Below are positions 1 to 40,001 of a DNA stretch of 40,001 bases, in pieces. The DNA comes from Escherichia coli. Its GTDB lineage: Bacteria; Pseudomonadota; Gammaproteobacteria; Enterobacterales; Enterobacteriaceae. Below the pieces are notes generated by a model. The model was not told where the DNA came from. It saw nothing but the letters and a program-made list of their open reading frames with translations, and searched no databases. Numbering within the stretch: position 1 is the first letter of the stretch; every line of letters begins with the position of its first letter. The stretch lies in the NCBI GenBank assembly GCA_011601165.1, contig GCA_011601165.1_4547.1; one strand, written 5' to 3'. Both the position numbers and the translations under genes were made by a program.

Positions 1-1643
1 AGAATCTTATCAGCTTTAGGGAACTCCCAGTGCGACCAAGAGGCTTGAAGCTGTACGCCGTCCTTAAACAAGAACTTGTAGATGTAGATTCGGTTATATG
101 CACCTGTAGAGTTGACGCAGATGTAGTTCTCAGTACCTGTACCTTGAATGTCAAACACCCCGTTAGGGATATAGGACAGTACGTGGCCAGTGGTATCATC
201 GGCATCCTTCACGTCAGACACATCTGCTACAGCGAAGTATCGCTTAATGCTGGTGAATGACCCACGAGGCGCTGAGAAGAAGACTGAGCGTCCTACAGCG
301 AACGGTCTGGCATTATCGCCTAAGGCAAACTCTGAGCCTACATCAAGCTGGATAGACTTCGAGGTAAGGACCCCTGAGCTTGTCATCACGAACTGCACCT
401 CATCTGACCAAAGTAGTAGCTGCTCACTAAACGGAACGGCATACTTAAGGATTGAGATTCTAGGGTGACTTACAGCTACGTCAATAGGATCATCATCACT
501 CAGTGTCGCCACACTCTTAGGGAAGAACGAAAAGTAGTTTGCTGAACGGCTCATGATTACGTTCTCGCCTGACAAGAACCCCAGCCTATTCCTGTAGAAG
601 AACACATCGTTAATCGTGGCATCCACGAAGCTAGGCATAGGGTTTGTGTCATCATTACCAGCACCACGCTTAGACCAGTCCAGAGTCTTGAACTCAAAGG
701 AGCCGTCAGATTGTCTAACCAGAGCATGTGGCATTGTGGTGTTATCGAACCCAGTGACCACTCCCGGCTCTACTGTCTCCTTCCACGTCTTAGTGCTGGA
801 GTCATACATCACGTAATATTCATCGGCGCTACTGTTGGTCTCACCTTGAATCTTAATGATGTACCCATTTGGAGCTGCAAGAGGCAACTTAGAGATTGTT
901 TGCACCGTGTCGATTACTGGGCTGATTAGCTGGTTAGCGTAGCCATCCTCCGTCTCCACTGAGTTAATGTCAGTCCCTGAAGGGGCAGTGATTAACAGGA
1001 AGCCAGGCCCAAGGTCGAACGTGAAGGTAGGGTAAGCAGCAACAAGAAGGTCTCTCAGAGCTGCACCGATAGCCTGAGCATCAACCTTAGGAGGGTCATT
1101 CTCGGCATCATTACCTGCTGGCAACTTATGCTCTACCTTAACGCCCCCGTTGATTCCTACCTTAAGGGTGCGACCATACTGTCCACCACGCAGGTTAATT
1201 AAAGCACGAGCTTTACGATTATAACCAGAGTGTGACTTCTCGCTTCCACCTTTAATGAAAACCTTACGGTTCACGATGAACGTATAGTCTGCAACGGTAA
1301 CGACACGGATGTCATCTCGCGGGTTGGACGACTCAACGTAGTCTACCACACCGGAAACTGAGTATTGATTACCGCTCAAGTCAACTACCTGAATGTTGGA
1401 CCCGTTGAACACGATGTAATACTGCTCCTGCTCATCACGGTTAATCAGGTGGAACTTAGGGTTGCTCCCAACGTCGATGTTAAGACGTCGCTTGAAGACT
1501 GTAGGTGGGCGCTTCTGGAGGCCATCACTCTCTGATGACCAGCAGTTAACTTGCGACTCGCCTTGGTCTGAGAACCTCAGTATGTCAGGCTGTTGGCTAA
1601 TGCCACCTTTAAGGTTCTTGATTGATTGAGTAATTAGTGGCAT
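1..1643 (-). CDS. 12: tail tubular protein B (T7 gp12), N-terminal part; runs off window start
   Basis: ATG at 1643-1641 preceded by AAGGAGG; translation begins MPLITQSI and stays open to position 1; remainder of gene found at 39287-40001. Confidence 0.85.
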   Translation of the reverse strand, partial: MPLITQSIKNLKGGISQQPDILRFSDQGESQVNCWSSESDGLQKRPPTVFKRRLNIDVGSNPKFHLINRDEQEQYYIVFNGSNIQVVDLSGNQYSVSGVVDYVESSNPRDDIRVVTVADYTFIVNRKVFIKGGSEKSHSGYNRKARALINLRGGQYGRTLKVGINGGVKVEHKLPAGNDAENDPPKVDAQAIGAALRDLLVAAYPTFTFDLGPGFLLITAPSGTDINSVETEDGYANQLISPVIDTVQTISKLPLAAPNGYIIKIQGETNSSADEYYVMYDSSTKTWKETVEPGVVTGFDNTTMPHALVRQSDGSFEFKTLDWSKRGAGNDDTNPMPSFVDATINDVFFYRNRLGFLSGENVIMSRSANYFSFFPKSVATLSDDDPIDVAVSHPRISILKYAVPFSEQLLLWSDEVQFVMTSSGVLTSKSIQLDVGSEFALGDNARPFAVGRSVFFSAPRGSFTSIKRYFAVADVSDVKDADDTTGHVLSYIPNGVFDIQGTGTENYICVNSTGAYNRIYIYKFLFKDGVQLQASWSHWEFPKADKI

Positions 1644-1652
1644 AGGCCCTCC

Positions 1653-1880
1653 TTAAATCATACTCATTAGGACGTATCCCTCAGCGATGTCACCAACGTC
1701 AGCCACATGGACAACCTTACGTGCTACCTGTTGTCCAGTATATCCGTTGTCCCACTCGTTCAGGATAAGCCAGTCGCCAACCTTAAAGTCCCGGTCGTTA
1801 AGTCTCAGCTCTGCTGTCTTTAGACCTAGTTGTACTGGACCAAAGTGCTGGCGGTGAATCTTCAGGTTATGCGCTGCCAT
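1653..1880 (-). CDS. small ASCH/PUA-like (DUF3850-type) protein, 75 aa; not present at this position in T7
   Basis: ORF MAAHNLKIHRQHFGPVQLGLKTAELRLNDRDFKVGDWLILNEW...; ATG overlaps gp11 stop (TAATG); motif pattern recalled from DUF3850/ASCH family. Confidence 0.5.
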   Translation of the reverse strand: MAAHNLKIHRQHFGPVQLGLKTAELRLNDRDFKVGDWLILNEWDNGYTGQQVARKVVHVADVGDIAEGYVLMSMI

Positions 1881-2446
1881 TAGTCCCTCCCGATGTCGGA
1901 CATCATGTTGTAGCGACCAGTATCCATCTCGTATTCCATGACCTGCTGATAGAGTTCTGCTTCCTGCTCACGAAGGTACAGTTCAGACTCTTGGCTACCG
2001 AAGAACTTAGCGTTGAACTCACGGCTAGCCTTGGTAACGATGTAGTCCCTGAAGACCACTGGCATCTCAGAGAATGGTTTCATCTCAACAAGCTCTACCG
2101 TTATAGGGTCGGTGAAAGTTGTTGACTGAGTGGACAGGTCGTACAGGTATCCACCCATGTTGCTGTAGTAGCTGGTGGCCCCAGCAGTCATTACACGAAG
2201 GTATGACGGTAGGAATCGAATCCTGTTGTCTTGGACATCAGGTATCAGGACAGCAGCTTCGTTGATGTTAAAGTTCCAGCCTTTAGCTTGTACCTGACGA
2301 TTGACACGATGCAGGATACGTTGAGCGTTCGAGACGTCAGCGTTACCTTCGTCAAGCTGTAGGACTGCTGGTTCACCGATAGCAGCTAACATATCATTGA
2401 TGGCATCTAAGTCATCGTTAGCATTCAGTGGAATGTATTGAGCCAT
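1880..2446 (-). CDS. 11: tail tubular protein A (T7 gp11)
   Basis: 188 aa, resembles T7 gp11 as recalled (…LAAIGEP…GWNFNI…YIVTKASREFN…MEYEMD); SD GGAGGG upstream. Confidence 0.85.
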   Translation of the reverse strand: MAQYIPLNANDDLDAINDMLAAIGEPAVLQLDEGNADVSNAQRILHRVNRQVQAKGWNFNINEAAVLIPDVQDNRIRFLPSYLRVMTAGATSYYSNMGGYLYDLSTQSTTFTDPITVELVEMKPFSEMPVVFRDYIVTKASREFNAKFFGSQESELYLREQEAELYQQVMEYEMDTGRYNMMSDIGRD

Positions 2447-2460
2447 AGGCCCTCCTTAAG

Positions 2461-2499
2461 CAAAAAACCCCTCAAGCACCCGAAGGCACCCAAGGGGTT
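2461..2499 (-). terminator. Tphi-like intrinsic terminator for phage RNAP between genes 10 and 11
   Basis: mRNA sense CCCCTTGGGTGCC-TTCG-GGTGCTTGAGGGG followed by TTTTTTG; resembles T7 Tphi as recalled. Confidence 0.8.
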
Positions 2500-2503
2500 T
2501 CAA

Positions 2504-3816
2504 TTAGTTTGTGAAAGATACGTTGAAGGAACGCACAGGCGAACCGTCATACTCAACAATCACTAGACCTTCCACGCCAGAGGTGGCCTTGAAGTAGAGA
2601 CTGTTGGTTCTACGGGAGTAACTAACACCATCAGGCGTAGCAACATCAAGCAGCGACCAGTCGGTCACATCTGAAAGCTCAGGGAAGTCAACCTTCAAGC
2701 TGGTTCCCACCGTAGAACTATACGTCTCTAAGGTAGGACCCTCGGTAGAGAGGGCCTTAAAGGTCGTTAACCCGCTGACGCTGCTGTGAAAACCAGTGCG
2801 CCTGCTGCTTCTGGACGCAGCCCACCGTGACCCATAGCGTACTTACCAACAATCAGGTCGCCCTGAGCATCGACGTCACGGTCACGTTCCAGCGCCAAAT
2901 CACGCAGCTTAACAGTGCCTACGGCAGATCGGTGAGAGAACAGGCCCACAACGTTGTCCAGCGCAACTTTAACATCACCAGTAGCAGTAGCCGGGAAGGC
3001 GTGCTTCTGACCGGAAGCGATAGTGATACCATCATCACCACGAGTCTCACCAGCACCGCCCTGAGTCAAGTGTGGAACTTCAACAACCACGAAGCCCATT
3101 ACGTTACGGATGTTACCAGTCTCTGGATCAATCAGCGCAGCATAGTTAGCAGCGTTTGGCATCAGAGCCGCGAGGATCGCAGAGTAGTTATCAGGCGTGG
3201 TGTAGAAGTAACGGTCGCCAGCAGGAACGTAGTTGGAGGTCAGCTTCGCACGCGCAATGGTCAATTGACCGATGATTGCTTCACCCAGTTTAGCTGGGGT
3301 ATCGAGGGCAGCTTTCGTACCAACTTCCAGTACGGATGCGGTGCCTAGACCAGCAATGTTCTCGTTGGATGCGGACGGAAGGTTACACAGGATAGCCATT
3401 TCAGCTAAAACCGCACCATCGGCAGCGATAGCCAGAGCTTCACCTAGCTGGTTGGAATACTCACCGGCCACGTCATAGTGGTTCATCGCGTCTTCAATAT
3501 CGAAAATCATCACATCGGCAGTCAGCAGACCATCAATGGTAATCACTTTCTCGGTATGTTTGATACCTTTACGCTTATCGGACAGTCGCTCACCGGGAGC
3601 CAGATACACACCAGAGGTGCGACCCATGACCGGGAACTGAGCAGACTTACCGTTCTGAATGGTACGGACAATATGCTTGTCAGCCGTTACAGAGCGGCGA
3701 GTGAATGCGGTCAGGACTTCACCAGCAAAGACCTTCAGGAACAACGCCAGAGCGTCGGAACTAGATTTGCCTTTACCTTGGTCTGTACCAATTTTCTGAC
3801 CCGGAACGTTTGCCAT
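2504..3816 (-). CDS. 10B: minor capsid protein 10B by programmed -1 frameshift at GGTTTTC (2788-2794), extension ends at 2504
   Basis: -1 frame is open from 2842 to 2504 with no stop; slippery heptamer G GTT TTC sits 8 codons before the 10A stop; same heptamer is used by T7 gene 10 as recalled. Confidence 0.65.
2767..3816 (-). CDS. 10A: major capsid protein 10A
   Basis: 349 aa, resembles T7 gp10A as recalled (…KVITIDGLLTADV…EDAMNHYDV…KYAMGHGGLRPEAAGA…); SD AGGAGA 8 nt before ATG. Confidence 0.95.
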   Translation of the reverse strand: MANVPGQKIGTDQGKGKSSSDALALFLKVFAGEVLTAFTRRSVTADKHIVRTIQNGKSAQFPVMGRTSGVYLAPGERLSDKRKGIKHTEKVITIDGLLTADVMIFDIEDAMNHYDVAGEYSNQLGEALAIAADGAVLAEMAILCNLPSASNENIAGLGTASVLEVGTKAALDTPAKLGEAIIGQLTIARAKLTSNYVPAGDRYFYTTPDNYSAILAALMPNAANYAALIDPETGNIRNVMGFVVVEVPHLTQGGAGETRGDDGITIASGQKHAFPATATGDVKVALDNVVGLFSHRSAVGTVKLRDLALERDRDVDAQGDLIVGKYAMGHGGLRPEAAGALVFTAASAG

Positions 3817-3920: not shown

Positions 3921-3943
3921 TCTCCCTATAGTGATAGTTTAGT
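3921..3943 (-). promoter_or_regulatory. phage RNAP promoter (phi10 equivalent)
   Basis: ACTAAACTATCACTATAGGGAGA on minus strand, +1 G near 3926, upstream of capsid gene. Confidence 0.85.
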
Positions 3944-3944
3944 C

Positions 3945-4832
3945 CTACAGACTTGATGCAGCTACCTTAGCGCGAACTTCCATCGTGTACTTAGCGTCGC
4001 GCAGGTATCGCGGGTCACTCATAGCCTTAATCATGTCAGCCTTAGAGCTGAATGCTTCGGTCTGAGGAGCCTTAGGTGCGACCACAGGTTTAGCCTGAGT
4101 GGTGATGGTACGCTGAGGTTTAACGCCTACAGCTTTACCAAGTGTCTTTCCAGCAAGATTCAGCAGAGCTTTGGTAGTCGCAATGTCCTTACGAACGATA
4201 GCAGCTTCCAGTGCTTCACGAGTTGACGGGTCGGTTGACTCAAGGTGGGACAGGATTCGATTAAACTGTTCAGCTCCACCAGCGTAGCGAACCACACCAG
4301 CAGCATACTGTTCAGCCAGAGCTTCCTGACCACGGACAAACGAATCTACGAAACGCTTGGTGTAACCTGCTTCCTGCAACTTAGCGTAGGATGCGTCAGA
4401 CAGCTTACCGTCCTTGGCGTATTCAGCCTTGATAGCGGTAATTTCATCAGCAGTGACCTTGCCAGCTTCCACAGCAGAAGACACCATGTCGTCGAATGCA
4501 GCTTCGTTTTCATCCAACGCGGTGACACTTTCAGTCAGCTCTTTCGGTGCATCGCCCAGTTCGATGAACTCAGGCTGCTCACCATCGGTCTCAGACTCTT
4601 CGTCATCGGACTCGTGGTCTTCTTCACCTTCAGTCTCTTCGACGTTCTCGTCTTCTTCTTCGGTAGCCTCTTCGTTTTCGGCTTCCAGTTGCTTGAAGGT
4701 AATAGCGTCGTCGCCATCACGAACAGCTACGTCCTGTTCAAGCATAGACTTCTGGTGTTCGTTCAGGTCCTCAACGGAACCAGTGATTGCATTAGAGCTA
4801 ACGCCAAACTCGGCATAAACTGATTGAGACAT
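3945..4832 (-). CDS. 9: scaffolding protein (T7 gp9)
   Basis: acidic protein resembling T7 gp9 as recalled; start reset to ATG 4832 (MSQSVYAEFGV) with SD AAGGAG; track start 4898 lies upstream of the promoter +1. Confidence 0.85.
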   Translation of the reverse strand: MSQSVYAEFGVSSNAITGSVEDLNEHQKSMLEQDVAVRDGDDAITFKQLEAENEEATEEEDENVEETEGEEDHESDDEESETDGEQPEFIELGDAPKELTESVTALDENEAAFDDMVSSAVEAGKVTADEITAIKAEYAKDGKLSDASYAKLQEAGYTKRFVDSFVRGQEALAEQYAAGVVRYAGGAEQFNRILSHLESTDPSTREALEAAIVRKDIATTKALLNLAGKTLGKAVGVKPQRTITTQAKPVVAPKAPQTEAFSSKADMIKAMSDPRYLRDAKYTMEVRAKVAASSL

Positions 4833-4920
4833 TGAGTCATTCTCCTTTAAGTCGTTAATAGGTAACGGGACAGAGTATGGTGGCTCCCAGTGGCACACTC
4901 TCGGTGAATGTGTGTCCCGT

Positions 4921-4943
4921 TGTTCCTATAGTGATAGTTTAGG
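4921..4943 (-). promoter_or_regulatory. phage RNAP promoter (phi9 equivalent)
   Basis: CCTAAACTATCACTATAGGAACA on minus strand. Confidence 0.8.
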
Positions 4944-6507
4944 CTTGAGCCATGTCCTCACCAGCTCCCTGACCTACAGCAGCGCCCATGTTAGCACCAG
5001 CAGCAGACGCACCGTTGACCACAGCTCCTTGAGCGGATTGTTCAGCCATACGTTGCAACTTCTCGTCCTGGGTCAGCAGTAGACCAGCGGTGTCAATACC
5101 TAAGGCATTCAGCAGTCGCAGCTTCAGGGTCGGCAAGTTAATGTCAGGGTCCTGAGAGAGCTGCTGAAGACCAGTCATCATGTTGATTGCCTGAGTCAGC
5201 TTCTCTAAGTCTTGACCACGACCTAACGCTTCCAGACCGGTGGAGACCGTAGGCTCTACCACTTCTTTCGGAAGGTCAGGAATCATGCCAGCAGACTGAA
5301 GCTGGTTCATCAGCACACGGACGATAGGTAACTGAAGCTCTTGTGACTGTACTGAGTACACGCCACCTAAGGTCGCCTCCAGTTCGCCAGCAACATAACG
5401 AATCTCTTCAGCAGTGACTCGCTCGGCATTACGCTGAACAGCACTATTAAGAAGGAAGGCCCATCCTAAACGTTGCTCGATAGCATCAGCCACCGACTTG
5501 GCAATCGTAAAGTCCTGACCTTTCGTCAGTTGCAGGAAGTTGATGTCCTCAACGCGACCAGCCACGAACTCACCTGTAGCCGCCTTGTTCAGACGTCGAG
5601 GTTGCGTGATACCGTTCGGGTTAACGAGGCCCACCACCTTGGAGGCTACCTTAGCCATTTTGGTGATAGCTTCTGTAATCGTCTCCAGCGAGTTGAGGTC
5701 GCCCAGATACTCCTCGCAGTAAGAACGACCGTAGTCTTCACCATCCAGTCGAACCATTCGTACCGGGATGTATGGACATGCAGTCAGCGGGTAGGAACCA
5801 TCGGTCCCTGCTACCTCAATGCCTTCCACTTCCTCGTAACGCAGGTACTCGTCGTCCTGACGGTAGATGTGCGTATACACTTCAAGCTCGGTGTCAGGCT
5901 CATAGTCGTCTGCGTTGAGTTGAGACTTCACGTCTTCTGGTAGAGCACTAAACGCTACCTTGTCGAGAGTCACAATCTGCAAGATGTTACCGAACGCATC
6001 ACGTTGAACAACGTAAGACACTAAGCGGTACATTCTCATGGGACTGTAGGTCCCCTGTTCAGGCTCTGGAATGTAGAGCAGACAGTTACCGGAGACGATA
6101 AGCTGCTTCAGAGCTTCGAACAATGGCACACGGAAACTGTTAGTCTCCATGTAAGCCATCAACACACGCTCGACCATAGCCAGCCCTTCGTCAACACGAG
6201 CAGCCGCCTCTGAGTCCTGACTCAAGGTCTTGGCCTCATATTCGGAGACCGTCAGTCGCATCCATGGTGACTGAGGGAATAACGCCAACATCAGCTTTGC
6301 AGCCAAGTTGTTCAAGCAGCGAGCACCTACAGCTTGCCATGGAGTGGTGTACTCAGTAGACGAGTTGTCGGACTCCTTGGGAAATAGCGAGGGGATGGTC
6401 ACGGCAGCGCAGTTCTGTGCGCGTGTCTCATACGGCTGTCTTCCGTTCTTCAGTCTATCATAAACTGACTTCGCGCCTTCAGCAGCAAATCCTTCACGTT
6501 CAGCCAT
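4939..6507 (-). CDS. 8: portal (head-tail connector) protein (T7 gp8)
   Basis: 522 aa; N-terminus MAEREGFAAEGAKSVYDRLKNGRQPYETRAQNCA matches T7 gp8 as recalled; SD GGAGG. Confidence 0.95.
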   Translation of the reverse strand: MAEREGFAAEGAKSVYDRLKNGRQPYETRAQNCAAVTIPSLFPKESDNSSTEYTTPWQAVGARCLNNLAAKLMLALFPQSPWMRLTVSEYEAKTLSQDSEAAARVDEGLAMVERVLMAYMETNSFRVPLFEALKQLIVSGNCLLYIPEPEQGTYSPMRMYRLVSYVVQRDAFGNILQIVTLDKVAFSALPEDVKSQLNADDYEPDTELEVYTHIYRQDDEYLRYEEVEGIEVAGTDGSYPLTACPYIPVRMVRLDGEDYGRSYCEEYLGDLNSLETITEAITKMAKVASKVVGLVNPNGITQPRRLNKAATGEFVAGRVEDINFLQLTKGQDFTIAKSVADAIEQRLGWAFLLNSAVQRNAERVTAEEIRYVAGELEATLGGVYSVQSQELQLPIVRVLMNQLQSAGMIPDLPKEVVEPTVSTGLEALGRGQDLEKLTQAINMMTGLQQLSQDPDINLPTLKLRLLNALGIDTAGLLLTQDEKLQRMAEQSAQGAVVNGASAAGANMGAAVGQGAGEDMAQA

Positions 6508-24780: not shown

Positions 24781-24875
24781 GTCTCTGACTGTAGGTGTTG
24801 GTGTCTTATGGTTGAGACAGTAGGTTAGTGAGGCTGTAGGTTGTGACTTATGGTTGAGACTTATGGTTATACAGA
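24781..24875. repeat. left-end short direct repeat array
   Basis: CTTATGGTTGAGAC twice plus CTGTAGG units on plus strand. Confidence 0.6.
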
Positions 24876-24876
24876 T

Positions 24877-25076
24877 AGGGACTCGGAGAAGACCAATAGT
24901 CCCGACCTATCGTCCCGACCTCCAGCCATAGCCTCAACCTATCGTTGACCTGAAGGCTTGACAGCTGGTCAAACCTTATGATAGACTGGAGGTATAGACC
25001 GAAGGTCTAGGGGTAGGGCCTTTGGTCGGACTGAAGGAGGGCCTATGGGGAGACTTGAGGTTCTTGAACTGTGAGA
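24877..25076. repeat. candidate direct terminal repeat, single collapsed copy (T7-like genome terminus)
   Basis: minus strand TCTCACAGT…CCCCATAGG… and …TCCCTATCTGT resemble the T7 terminal-repeat start and end as recalled; boundaries inferred. Confidence 0.3.
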
Positions 25077-39286: not shown

Positions 39287-40001
39287 TTAGACGGAACGAG
39301 CTTTCTTAGCGTATGACGCCTCCCAGCCACAGCCAACGATGGACACTGGGGTAGGATAATCTGACTCTAAGGTTAGACTCGTGGTTAATGCGTTACCATT
39401 CATAGCGAAGCGATACTGACCATCCCCAATGTTGGTAGTCCCGATGGTTTGCTGACCAAGGGTGTACCCATTAAAGGTGTTCACGAACTCCCGCTCACCG
39501 TTTCTGACAATGAGCCTAAGAGCGCCAGTGTCCTTGTAGTTGACCCACGCCCGACGAAGCTGTAGGCGTCCAGTGTCTTCAGACTGAGTGCCGCTATCGT
39601 CTTCAATCTTAATCAGGAACCGTGAGAACTTGTAGGACATCTGATAAGACCGTCCGATGAACACTGTACGTCCTGACCAATCGCCATTGAGTATAGCCAC
39701 AGTTGAGATGTTGGTCAGTTCACCAAGGTCCACATAGGCACCCTGACTGTCAATCAGATAGTACCGACCGGGAGACGGAGCGTTTCCACCATAAGCAGAA
39801 CCAATATCGACCGTAGTCTTATAGGTGTCAGCGTTGTATGAGCCAATTGGTATTACCATAGACACCTTGGAGTCAACGTGGAGTCTATACGGCTCTAATG
39901 GAAAGTCAGTTGCCTCCTTGATGAACTTAAGGTGCTCAAGGTCCACGCCGCCTTGGTGCTGACGAACAATGAACATGGTAGAGCCAATCGACGCAGACGC
40001 C
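39287..40001 (-). CDS. 12: tail tubular protein B (gp12), C-terminal part; 5' end beyond window end
   Basis: frame open from window end to TAA at 39287-39289; lengths of the two gp12 pieces sum to about 786 codons against about 794 in T7. Confidence 0.85.
   Translation of the reverse strand, partial: ASASIGSTMFIVRQHQGGVDLEHLKFIKEATDFPLEPYRLHVDSKVSMVIPIGSYNADTYKTTVDIGSAYGGNAPSPGRYYLIDSQGAYVDLGELTNISTVAILNGDWSGRTVFIGRSYQMSYKFSRFLIKIEDDSGTQSEDTGRLQLRRAWVNYKDTGALRLIVRNGEREFVNTFNGYTLGQQTIGTTNIGDGQYRFAMNGNALTTSLTLESDYPTPVSIVGCGWEASYAKKARSV

What the first reader, a model, noticed from the sequence alone, without database searches (positions are those of the whole stretch)
1653..1880. ASCH/PUA-like small gene inserted between tail tubular genes 11 and 12
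T7 genes 11 and 12 are adjacent. Here a 75-aa ORF is coupled to gp11 (TAATG overlap) and ends just before the gp12 SD. Its sequence resembles DUF3850/ASCH-type domains, which are putative RNA or modified-nucleotide binders, an unusual thing to find inside the structural operon.
Basis: partly seen in the sequence, partly recalled or inferred. Interest (0 to 1): 0.45.

Follow-up and report, generated by a model that had tools for sequence, protein, structure and literature searches.

The report
Small ASCH-fold gene between tail genes
A real, conserved 75-residue gene for a miniature ASCH/DUF3850 (PUA-like) protein sits between tail genes 11 and 12 of this K1F-like T7 relative; most of its close relatives have it there and it is already annotated, and it is most likely a dispensable non-virion accessory protein that acts on a cytosine-type base or on RNA.

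Summary

The window is a complete, circularly permuted Kayfunavirus genome. About 160 of about 200 close relatives carry the gene at this junction, and diverged orthologues (75%, 66%, 46% identity) sit there too. K1F and Zappy, whose gp11 is 99% identical, lack it cleanly. It is therefore old in the genus, dispensable and sometimes lost. dN/dS is 0.1-0.25, so it is under purifying selection.

Elsewhere, DUF3850 genes lie in replication/nin accessory regions. The CR44b orthologue (gene 11.05) carries no mass-spectrometry note, although gp11 and gp12 do.

The junction is a hot spot. Two relatives add an endonuclease VII gene after the ORF, and one keeps a deletion remnant of both.

Best reading: a late, translationally coupled, non-structural mini-ASCH protein that binds or deacylates a cytosine derivative such as ac4C. 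The function is untested. The gene is already annotated, so interest is low to moderate.

The parts
1653..1880 (-). 75-aa ORF for a stand-alone DUF3850 / mini-ASCH protein (8.5 kDa, pI 6.4). It carries the octapeptide G19-L-K21-T-A-E24-L-R26 followed by the DUF3850-specific N28-D29-R30.
1885..1890 (-). Shine-Dalgarno GGAGGG for the ORF, inside the gp11 3' end. The gp11 stop and the ORF start overlap as TAATG (1882-1878).
   Evidence: In K1F and Zappy the same GGGAGGGACTAATG serves gp12 directly.
1647..1652 (-). Shine-Dalgarno GGAGGG for gp12, directly after the ORF stop (TAA 1655-1653). The gp12 ATG is at 1643-1641.
   Evidence: The 15-mer TAAGGAGGGCCTATG (1641-1655) is identical to the one in front of gene 11 (2444-2458).
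1880..2446 (-). Gene 11, tail tubular protein A (188 aa)
   Evidence: Pfam Tube E 3e-46 and PHROG 446
1..1643 (-). Gene 12, nozzle / tail tubular protein B, N-terminal 547 codons. The gene continues at the right end of the window.
   Evidence: Pfam Phage_nozzle E 3e-255
39287..40001 (-). C-terminal part of gene 12. The window is a circularly permuted whole genome: 1643 + 715 = 2358 nt, the same length as gene 12 in relatives.
   Evidence: gp12 is 2358 nt in L001. This is inference from the lengths and was not separately translated.
2469..2486 (-). Tphi-like intrinsic terminator between the 10B extension and gene 11. Genes 11, 11.05 and 12 lie downstream of it.
   Evidence: T7 has Tphi at the equivalent place.
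3924..3950 (-). Nearest upstream phage-type promoter (phi10 equivalent, CTAAACTATCACTATAGG on the coding strand). No such promoter lies between it and the ORF.
   Evidence: repeat family D1, 11 copies

Best explanation
The ORF encodes a non-structural, dispensable accessory protein of the phage. It is a minimal ASCH-superfamily (DUF3850) beta-barrel whose conserved pocket takes up a cytosine-type base.

Shown:
- The gene lies in the late transcript that starts at the phi10-type promoter and reads through the Tphi-like terminator.
- It has its own strong Shine-Dalgarno inside the end of gene 11.
- Its stop codon abuts the Shine-Dalgarno of gene 12.

Inferred from that layout: its translation is coupled to termination of gp11, and initiation of gp12 is coupled to its own termination. 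It would then be made late, in roughly tail-protein amounts, without disturbing gp11/gp12 expression.

Inferred from the fold and motif: Lys21 and Glu24 of the octapeptide GxKxxExR, together with Arg26 and the family-specific Asn28-Asp29-Arg30, Glu42 and Thr48, form the ligand site. The most likely chemistry is recognition, and possibly hydrolytic deacylation, of an N4-modified cytidine such as ac4C. The substrate could be tRNA or other RNA, or the free nucleoside, as now reported for ASCH proteins of the 'GKER' type.

The benefit to the phage is unknown. It could be tuning of host translation, nucleoside salvage, or counter-defence. It is conditional, because close relatives do without the gene.
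For: Family and fold:
- Pfam DUF3850 E 1.5e-19 and ASCH 26.2 bits.
- AlphaFold model pLDDT 87.

Motif:
- hhalign puts K21, E24 and R26 onto YqfB K21, T24 and R26.
- K21 is the only invariant residue among 150 diverse family members. E24, R26, N28, D29, R30, E42 and T48 are at least 90% conserved.
- bioRxiv 10.64898/2026.02.27.708502 reports that GKER-type ASCH proteins remove ac4C from tRNA and need the Lys and Glu.

Not structural and dispensable:
- K1F and Zappy have 99% identical gp11 and 96-97% identical gp12 but no ORF. SH3 also has none.
- The CR44b record carries mass-spectrometry notes for gp8, 9, 10A, 11, 12 and 14 but not for 11.05.
- Homologues in other phages lie in nin/replication accessory regions.

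Functional gene: dN/dS is 0.08-0.27, and orthologues at the same junction go down to 46% identity.

Expression: the promoter and terminator map and the junction sequence.

Not a general nucleic-acid binder by itself: pI 6.4. Relatives recruit separate nucleic-acid-binding modules, namely LexA wHTH and the ParB-CTPase fold.
Against: - No biochemical or genetic data exist for any DUF3850 protein. 3IUW has no accompanying paper among those found.
- The domain is only 75 aa and lacks the helical insert that carries Glu74 of YqfB (one search aligns residues 10-47 only).
- According to the preprint's discussion, Meng et al. 2025 (Structure 33:2095) found Glu-type ASCH proteins inactive on ac4C. The activity of GKER proteins is therefore disputed.
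- The strongly conserved N-D-R triplet has no counterpart in characterised ASCH enzymes, so the ligand may be something else.
- The CR44b orthologue has lost N-D-R (GIKTCDLRPSIPE).
- Late expression is atypical for host-takeover or counter-defence genes.
- The virion-absence evidence is a single negative annotation.
Confidence: 0.5

Rival explanations
1. The protein is a non-catalytic reader or binder. The barrel binds RNA or DNA, possibly at a modified base, as YTH, EVE and some ASCH domains do. It would act as a small regulator, for example of late mRNA or host RNA, or as a shield against modification-dependent nucleases.
For: - PHROG 986 is labelled 'RNA-binding protein'.
- DUF3850 is fused to a LexA DNA-binding domain and to ParB-CTPase folds next to ParA.
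- ASCH domains have been predicted to bind modified DNA (PMC7641849).
Against: - The protein has a near-neutral pI of 6.4 and no basic surface signal in the sequence.
- Stand-alone ASCH domains did not shift tRNA in EMSA, whereas their HTH partners did.
- An invariant Lys with a near-invariant Glu/Arg is the pattern of a catalytic site as much as of a binding site.
Confidence: 0.25
2. The protein is a counter-defence factor. It would sequester or destroy a cytosine-derived or acylated nucleotide used by a host immune system, such as a GNAT-type acetylating toxin or a cytidine-based signal. This would explain the patchy presence among close relatives.
For: - Presence/absence varies among near-identical genomes.
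- The family is broadly distributed in unrelated phages, in accessory regions.
- ASCH genes accompany (PIN)-GNAT-EVE and type I RM operons in prokaryotes (PMC7641849).
- An ASCH-like barrel is the predicted base-flipping module of an anti-phage 5hmC glycosylase (PMC13160076).
Against: - There is no meaningful match in PADLOC (best E 0.006).
- No experimental link was found.
- Late-operon expression is atypical for anti-defence genes.
Confidence: 0.12
3. The protein is a virion or tail-assembly component, such as a chaperone or minor tail protein. This is suggested by its place between the two tail tube genes.
For: - Its position and translational coupling within the tail operon.
Against: - K1F, Zappy and SH3 assemble tails with 96-99% identical gp11 and gp12 and no such gene.
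- There is no mass-spectrometry note for CR44b 11.05.
- The family lives mainly in non-structural regions of siphoviruses, myoviruses and prophages.
- ASCH matches are much stronger than hub matches.
Confidence: 0.05
4. The ORF is a selfish or decaying passenger with no function for the phage, left at a recombination and homing hot spot.
For: - The junction is a hot spot. Endonuclease VII genes are inserted there, and a deletion remnant exists.
- The gene has been lost in some genomes.
- CR44b has lost the N-D-R motif.
Against: - dN/dS is 0.08-0.27 over dS up to saturation.
- The reading frame is intact in about 160 records.
- Motif residues are invariant in 30 orthologues.
Confidence: 0.04

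Closest known systems
Pfam PF12961 DUF3850 (PUA-like clan); solved member PDB 3IUW, Enterococcus faecalis NP_814290 'activating signal cointegrator'
   Different: Nothing of substance. The family itself has no demonstrated function.
Gene 11.05 of Citrobacter phage CR44b, and the 'RNA-binding protein'/hypothetical genes between genes 11 and 12 of other Kayfunavirus genomes (PHROG 986)
   Same: Same locus and same junction architecture: an ATG overlapping the gp11 stop, and a 9-nt Shine-Dalgarno spacer before gp12. Most records are 93-98% identical.
   Different: CR44b 11.05 is only 46% identical. It has GIKTCDLR in place of GLKTAELR and has lost N-D-R.
E. coli YqfB, N4-acetylcytidine amidohydrolase (ASCH; PDB 9KYF, 1TE7)
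   Different: YqfB has Thr24 ('GKTR'); this protein has Glu24 ('GKER'). YqfB is 103 aa and has a helical insert bearing Glu74, which the 75-aa protein lacks (residues as given).
GKER-type ASCH proteins reported as tRNA ac4C erasers (TthASCH 2DP9, EOLA1, TRIP4 ASCH; bioRxiv 10.64898/2026.02.27.708502)
   Same: The Glu-type octapeptide with Lys and Glu, the reported essential dyad.
   Different: Those proteins have 120-160-aa domains with extra helices and aromatic contacts (Tyr14 and Tyr81 in TthASCH). No DUF3850 member was among the 19 proteins tested, and their activity is disputed.
ZmASCH, the Zymomonas mobilis ssRNA-specific ribonuclease (PDB 5GUQ)
   Different: 8% identity. It is a 143-aa protein with an added HTH-like part. 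There is no evidence for a metal site in the ORF.

Membership tests
Pfam DUF3850 (PF12961) | Score above the curated gathering cut-off over the whole domain | tested here: met
   70.4 bits against a cut-off of 22.9; residues 3-73 on profile positions 1-76 of 77
Pfam DUF3850 (PF12961) | Family motif K-T-x-E-x-R-x-N-D-R ... G-D ... E ... T-G | tested here: met
   K21, T22, E24, R26, N28, D29, R30, G35, D36, E42, T48 and G49 are present. They are invariant or at least 90% conserved in 30 orthologues and 150 diverse members.
ASCH superfamily (PF04266; Iyer, Burroughs & Aravind 2006) | [quoted passage not shown] | tested here: met
ASCH superfamily (PF04266; Iyer, Burroughs & Aravind 2006) | Octapeptide GxKxxExR | tested here: met
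   G19-L-K21-T-A-E24-L-R26, aligned to the YqfB octapeptide by hhalign. The Pfam ASCH score is 26.2 against a cut-off of 21.2.
YqfB-type N4-acylcytidine amidohydrolases | Thr at octapeptide position 24 (GKTR) and Glu74 on the helical insert | tested here: not met
   Position 24 is Glu. The alignment covers only residues 10-47, and the 75-aa protein has no counterpart of the insert.
GKER-type ASCH tRNA ac4C deacetylases | Lys + Glu dyad of the octapeptide | tested here: met
   K21 and E24 are present, and K21 is invariant in 150 relatives.
GKER-type ASCH tRNA ac4C deacetylases | Measured removal of ac4C from tRNA or nucleoside | not testable with these tools
   This needs an enzyme assay. No DUF3850 protein is in the published set.
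T7-group virion (structural) proteins | Presence in purified particles; requirement for assembly | tested here: inconclusive
   The evidence is indirect. CR44b 11.05 has no mass-spectrometry note while its neighbours do. K1F, Zappy and SH3 lack the gene. No proteomics exists for this phage.
Known anti-phage defence or counter-defence families (PADLOC-DB) | Significant profile match | tested here: not met
   The best hit is PDC-M07B at E 0.006 over 34 residues.

The most novel reading that the evidence does not exclude
DUF3850 proteins, about 5,000 clusters at 50% identity and mostly from phages and prophages, could be the smallest natural ASCH enzymes. This phage would then use one late in infection to strip N4-acetyl or other N4-acyl groups from cytidine. 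The target could be host RNA, for example ac4C34 of elongator tRNA-Met, or a defence-made acylated nucleotide. That would make it a phage-encoded RNA-modification eraser or counter-defence deacylase.
Probability: 0.15. Interest if true: 0.6.

Novelty: already known. Interest (0 to 1): 0.27.

Why it matters
For this window it settles an annotation. The ORF is a genuine, selected gene of a known family at a position already recorded in related genomes. It is not a structural novelty.

The wider value is modest but real. DUF3850 is a large, phage-rich family with no assigned function. Recent work on ASCH proteins gives a concrete, cheap test: ac4C or N4-acylcytidine hydrolysis with Lys21 and Glu24 mutants. 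Natural isogenic-like pairs already exist (the window type against K1F or Zappy) for a fitness or host-range comparison.

The gp11/gp12 junction also emerges as a small hot spot with four allelic states. That is useful for people who engineer T7-like phages and need a tolerated insertion site inside the late operon.

Tried and rejected
- NCBIfam gave no match. PADLOC gave only a sub-threshold hit.
- A sequence search of the PDB finds only 3IUW, with the single sequence and with the profile.
- Pfam and PHROG scans of 150 diverse family members, looking for informative fusion partners, gave mostly domains of unknown function: DUF551, DUF7415, one dATP/dGTP pyrophosphohydrolase, and unnamed PHROGs.
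- Literature searches for DUF3850, Kayfunavirus plus RNA-binding protein, and accessory-region screens in T7-like phages found no functional study. Meng et al. 2025 (Structure) is not held.
- I first used 80% coverage as a presence count and rejected it. The ORF is only 19% of that query, so genomes without the ORF also pass. The tighter query was used instead.
- Horizontal-transfer signal by composition: the ORF has GC 0.49 and GC3 0.51, the same as its neighbours, so this is uninformative.
- The antisense ORF 1687-1857 (+), 56 aa, has no support and is taken as a shadow of the real frame.
- A residue-level 3D comparison of the model with the ac4C-bound YqfB pocket could not be done, because the tools return scores but no coordinates.

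Full report
**What is there.** All long ORFs of the window are on the minus strand, in T7 order. Those identified here are:
- portal, 4939-6507
- scaffold, 3945-4898
- major capsid, 2767-3816
- a 68-aa frame at 2504-2710, annotated in a relative as the -1 frameshift extension of the minor capsid protein
- gene 11, 1880-2446 (Pfam Tube, E 3e-46)
- gene 12, from 1643 off the left edge (Pfam Phage_nozzle, E 3e-255)

Gene 12 appears to resume at the right edge, 39287-40001. The two pieces add up to 2358 nt, the length of gene 12 in relatives. The window is therefore a whole, circularly permuted genome of about 40 kb.

DNA searches place it in the genus Kayfunavirus (K1F-like Studiervirinae). The best records are 94-97% identical.

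**The ORF and its junctions.** The ORF is 1653-1880 (minus), 75 aa, 8.5 kDa, pI 6.4.

On the coding strand the upstream junction reads GGGAGGGAC-TAATG. The gp11 stop TAA (1882-1880) shares its last A with the ORF ATG (1880-1878). A GGAGGG Shine-Dalgarno lies 4 nt upstream of the ATG.

The downstream junction reads ATT-TAA-GGAGGG-CCT-ATG. The ORF stop (1655-1653) abuts the gp12 Shine-Dalgarno (1652-1647), and the gp12 ATG is at 1643.

T7 has only a 23-nt spacer between genes 11 and 12.

**Operon.** Eleven copies of a phage-type promoter (coding-strand CTAAACTATCACTATAGG) occur in the window. The nearest one upstream of the ORF is at 3924-3950, in front of the capsid gene. None lies between it and the ORF.

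A stem-loop followed by a T-run at 2486-2469 sits where T7 has Tphi.

The ORF is thus transcribed late, with genes 11 and 12, by read-through. Its translation is probably coupled on both sides. The layout is shown; the coupling is inferred from it.

**Family and fold.** Sequence matches:
- Pfam DUF3850: 70.4 bits, E 1.5e-19, full length
- Pfam ASCH: 26.2 bits, above the cut-off of 21.2
- PHROG 986 'RNA-binding protein': E 3e-35
- the only sequence-detectable solved relative is 3IUW of Enterococcus faecalis (E 1.4e-10, or 3e-19 with a profile)

The sequence G19-L-K21-T-A-E24-L-R26 is the ASCH octapeptide GxKxxExR. hhalign superposes it on YqfB K21, T24 and R26.

Among 150 diverse family members K21 is the only invariant residue. 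H4, K7, G19, E24, R26, N28, D29, R30, G35, D36, E42, T48 and G49 are at least 90% conserved.

The family is large. It has 5,276 representative clusters at E <= 1e-3.

**Distribution at this locus.** With an 828-nt query of which the ORF makes up 27%, 203 records match at 80% identity or more, and 164 of them cover 80% or more of the query. So about four in five close relatives carry the ORF. tblastn finds 156 records with at least 80% protein identity.

More distant orthologues sit at exactly the same junction in T7-like contigs:
- P0024, 75% identical
- P0028, 66% identical
- CR44b gene 11.05, 46% identical

Their gp11 is 94%, 91% and 81% identical to the window's. K1F and Zappy have 99% identical gp11 and no ORF. 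Their junction is GGGAGGGACTAATGCC, with the gp11 stop overlapping the gp12 start. Citrobacter phage SH3 also has only 11 nt between the two genes.

The simplest history is an old resident of the genus that is occasionally lost by a clean deletion between the two SD-ATG blocks.

Pairwise dN/dS is 0.08-0.27 for the ORF and 0.03-0.13 for gp11. The ORF is under purifying selection, but less tightly than its neighbour.

**A hot spot.** The junction has four states in the genus: empty, DUF3850 alone, DUF3850 plus endonuclease, and a deletion remnant of both.
- In Escherichia phage KM02 and Hafnia phage yong1 a 146-aa gene follows the DUF3850 gene and overlaps the gp12 start. It matches Pfam Endonuclease_7, E 2e-20.
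- Kayfunavirus LI10P1 keeps a 50-codon remnant. The first five DUF3850 codons (MASHN) are fused in frame to the last 45 residues of that endonuclease.
- In the Przondovirus HZJ31 an endonuclease VII gene alone lies between genes 11 and 12.

**Context elsewhere.** In other phages the family sits in accessory regions, not in tail operons:
- in the nin region after the replication genes, next to NinX (Erwinia phage Midgardsormr38)
- directly after gene A in a P2-like phage
- among small early genes near SSB in a Listeria phage
- among small ORFs between lysis and terminase in K1ind1

Family members are fused to:
- a LexA-type winged-helix domain
- DUF7415
- DUF551
- a dATP/dGTP pyrophosphohydrolase
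- Cys-rich CxxCxGxG tails
- ParB-CTPase folds encoded next to ParA, according to a 2025 survey

**Mechanism.** Known ASCH activities all centre on a cytosine derivative held in the barrel's cleft.
- YqfB hydrolyses ac4C, and its catalytic residues K21, T24 and R26 lie in the octapeptide.
- A 2026 preprint reports that 19 ASCH proteins, including Glu-type (GKER) ones, remove ac4C from tRNA and need the Lys and Glu. It also reports that stand-alone ASCH domains did not detectably shift tRNA in EMSA unless an HTH was attached.
- An ASCH-like barrel is the predicted base-flipping module of a 5hmC DNA glycosylase.
- ZmASCH cuts single-stranded RNA.

The ORF has the Lys/Glu/Arg triad, a near-neutral pI, and relatives that borrow DNA- or RNA-binding partners. 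I therefore take it to be a pocket module for a cytosine-type base, possibly an N4-deacylase.

The caveats are serious:
- No DUF3850 protein has been assayed.
- The domain lacks the insert carrying YqfB Glu74.
- The activity of Glu-type ASCH proteins is disputed.
- The family-specific N-D-R triplet has no characterised counterpart and is missing from the CR44b orthologue.

**Not structural.** Three lines argue against a virion or assembly role:
- Viable relatives with near-identical tail proteins lack the gene.
- The CR44b record notes mass-spectrometry matches for its neighbours but not for 11.05.
- The family's usual genomic homes are non-structural.

This evidence is indirect.

**Verdict.** The feature is already annotated in many public genomes, so it is not new. 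What remains open is the function of the family, for which a specific and inexpensive test now exists.

Noticed in passing
L041 1210-1650 (KM02); L042 1210-1650 (Hafnia phage yong1); L040 2210-2611 (HZJ31): An endonuclease VII-type (Pfam Endonuclease_7, HNH-like) gene is inserted at the gp11/gp12 junction and overlaps the gp12 start. In two Kayfunavirus genomes it lies after the DUF3850 gene. In a Przondovirus it is alone. This looks like a homing-endonuclease hot spot.
   Followed up: partly
L007 about 791-919 (Kayfunavirus LI10P1): A 50-codon hybrid ORF, MASHN + HETGEVRGLLCRHCNKSLGG..., joins the first five DUF3850 codons in frame to the C-terminal 45 residues of the endonuclease VII gene. 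It is a deletion remnant of the two-gene state.
   Followed up: yes
L004 3001-3225 (CR44b gene 11.05): This orthologue at the same junction is only 46% identical, while gp11 and gp12 are 81-84% identical. It has GIKTCDLR and has lost the family's N-D-R triplet (RPSIPE). Its specificity may have changed or its function decayed.
   Followed up: partly
window 1641-1655 and 2444-2458 (minus strand); 25033-25047 (plus strand): The exact 15-mer TAAGGAGGGCCTATG (stop, Shine-Dalgarno, start) precedes both gene 11 and gene 12. A copy with one mismatch lies on the plus strand near the presumed genome ends. About 0.08 matches with up to two mismatches are expected by chance, and four were found.
   Followed up: partly
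window 2504-2710 (minus strand): A 68-aa frame (PHROG 7473) lies after the capsid gene. In the relative Peacock it is annotated as the extension of a minor capsid protein made by -1 frameshifting.
   Followed up: no
window 2447-2503 versus L001 4048-4207: Many relatives have about 100 extra bases between the capsid extension and gene 11, annotated in one record as a 29-aa hypothetical ORF. The window lacks them.
   Followed up: no
window 24798-24869: A cluster of short direct repeats (ACTTATGGTTGAGAC-like, three to four copies within 70 nt) lies in the gap between the early genes and the terminase end. This is presumably near the physical genome ends or terminal repeat.
   Followed up: no
window 3924, 4924, 8157, 14614, 16732, 17690, 19257, 19322, 22386, 25674, 31967 (27-nt repeat units; promoters on the minus strand): There are eleven copies of the phage RNA-polymerase promoter-like motif (coding-strand CTAAACTATCACTATAGG).
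   Followed up: partly
L026 2995-3543; L024 2995-3372; L027 2995-3375: DUF3850 is fused to a LexA-type winged-helix DNA-binding domain (L026) and to Cys-rich CxxCxGxG tails (L024, L027) in other viral contigs.
   Followed up: partly
window 1653-1880 versus 1880-2446, compared across L001-L020: Among close relatives the ORF has lower synonymous diversity than the adjacent gp11 (pooled pS 0.165 against 0.276). This may reflect a more recent spread of one allele by recombination.
   Followed up: no
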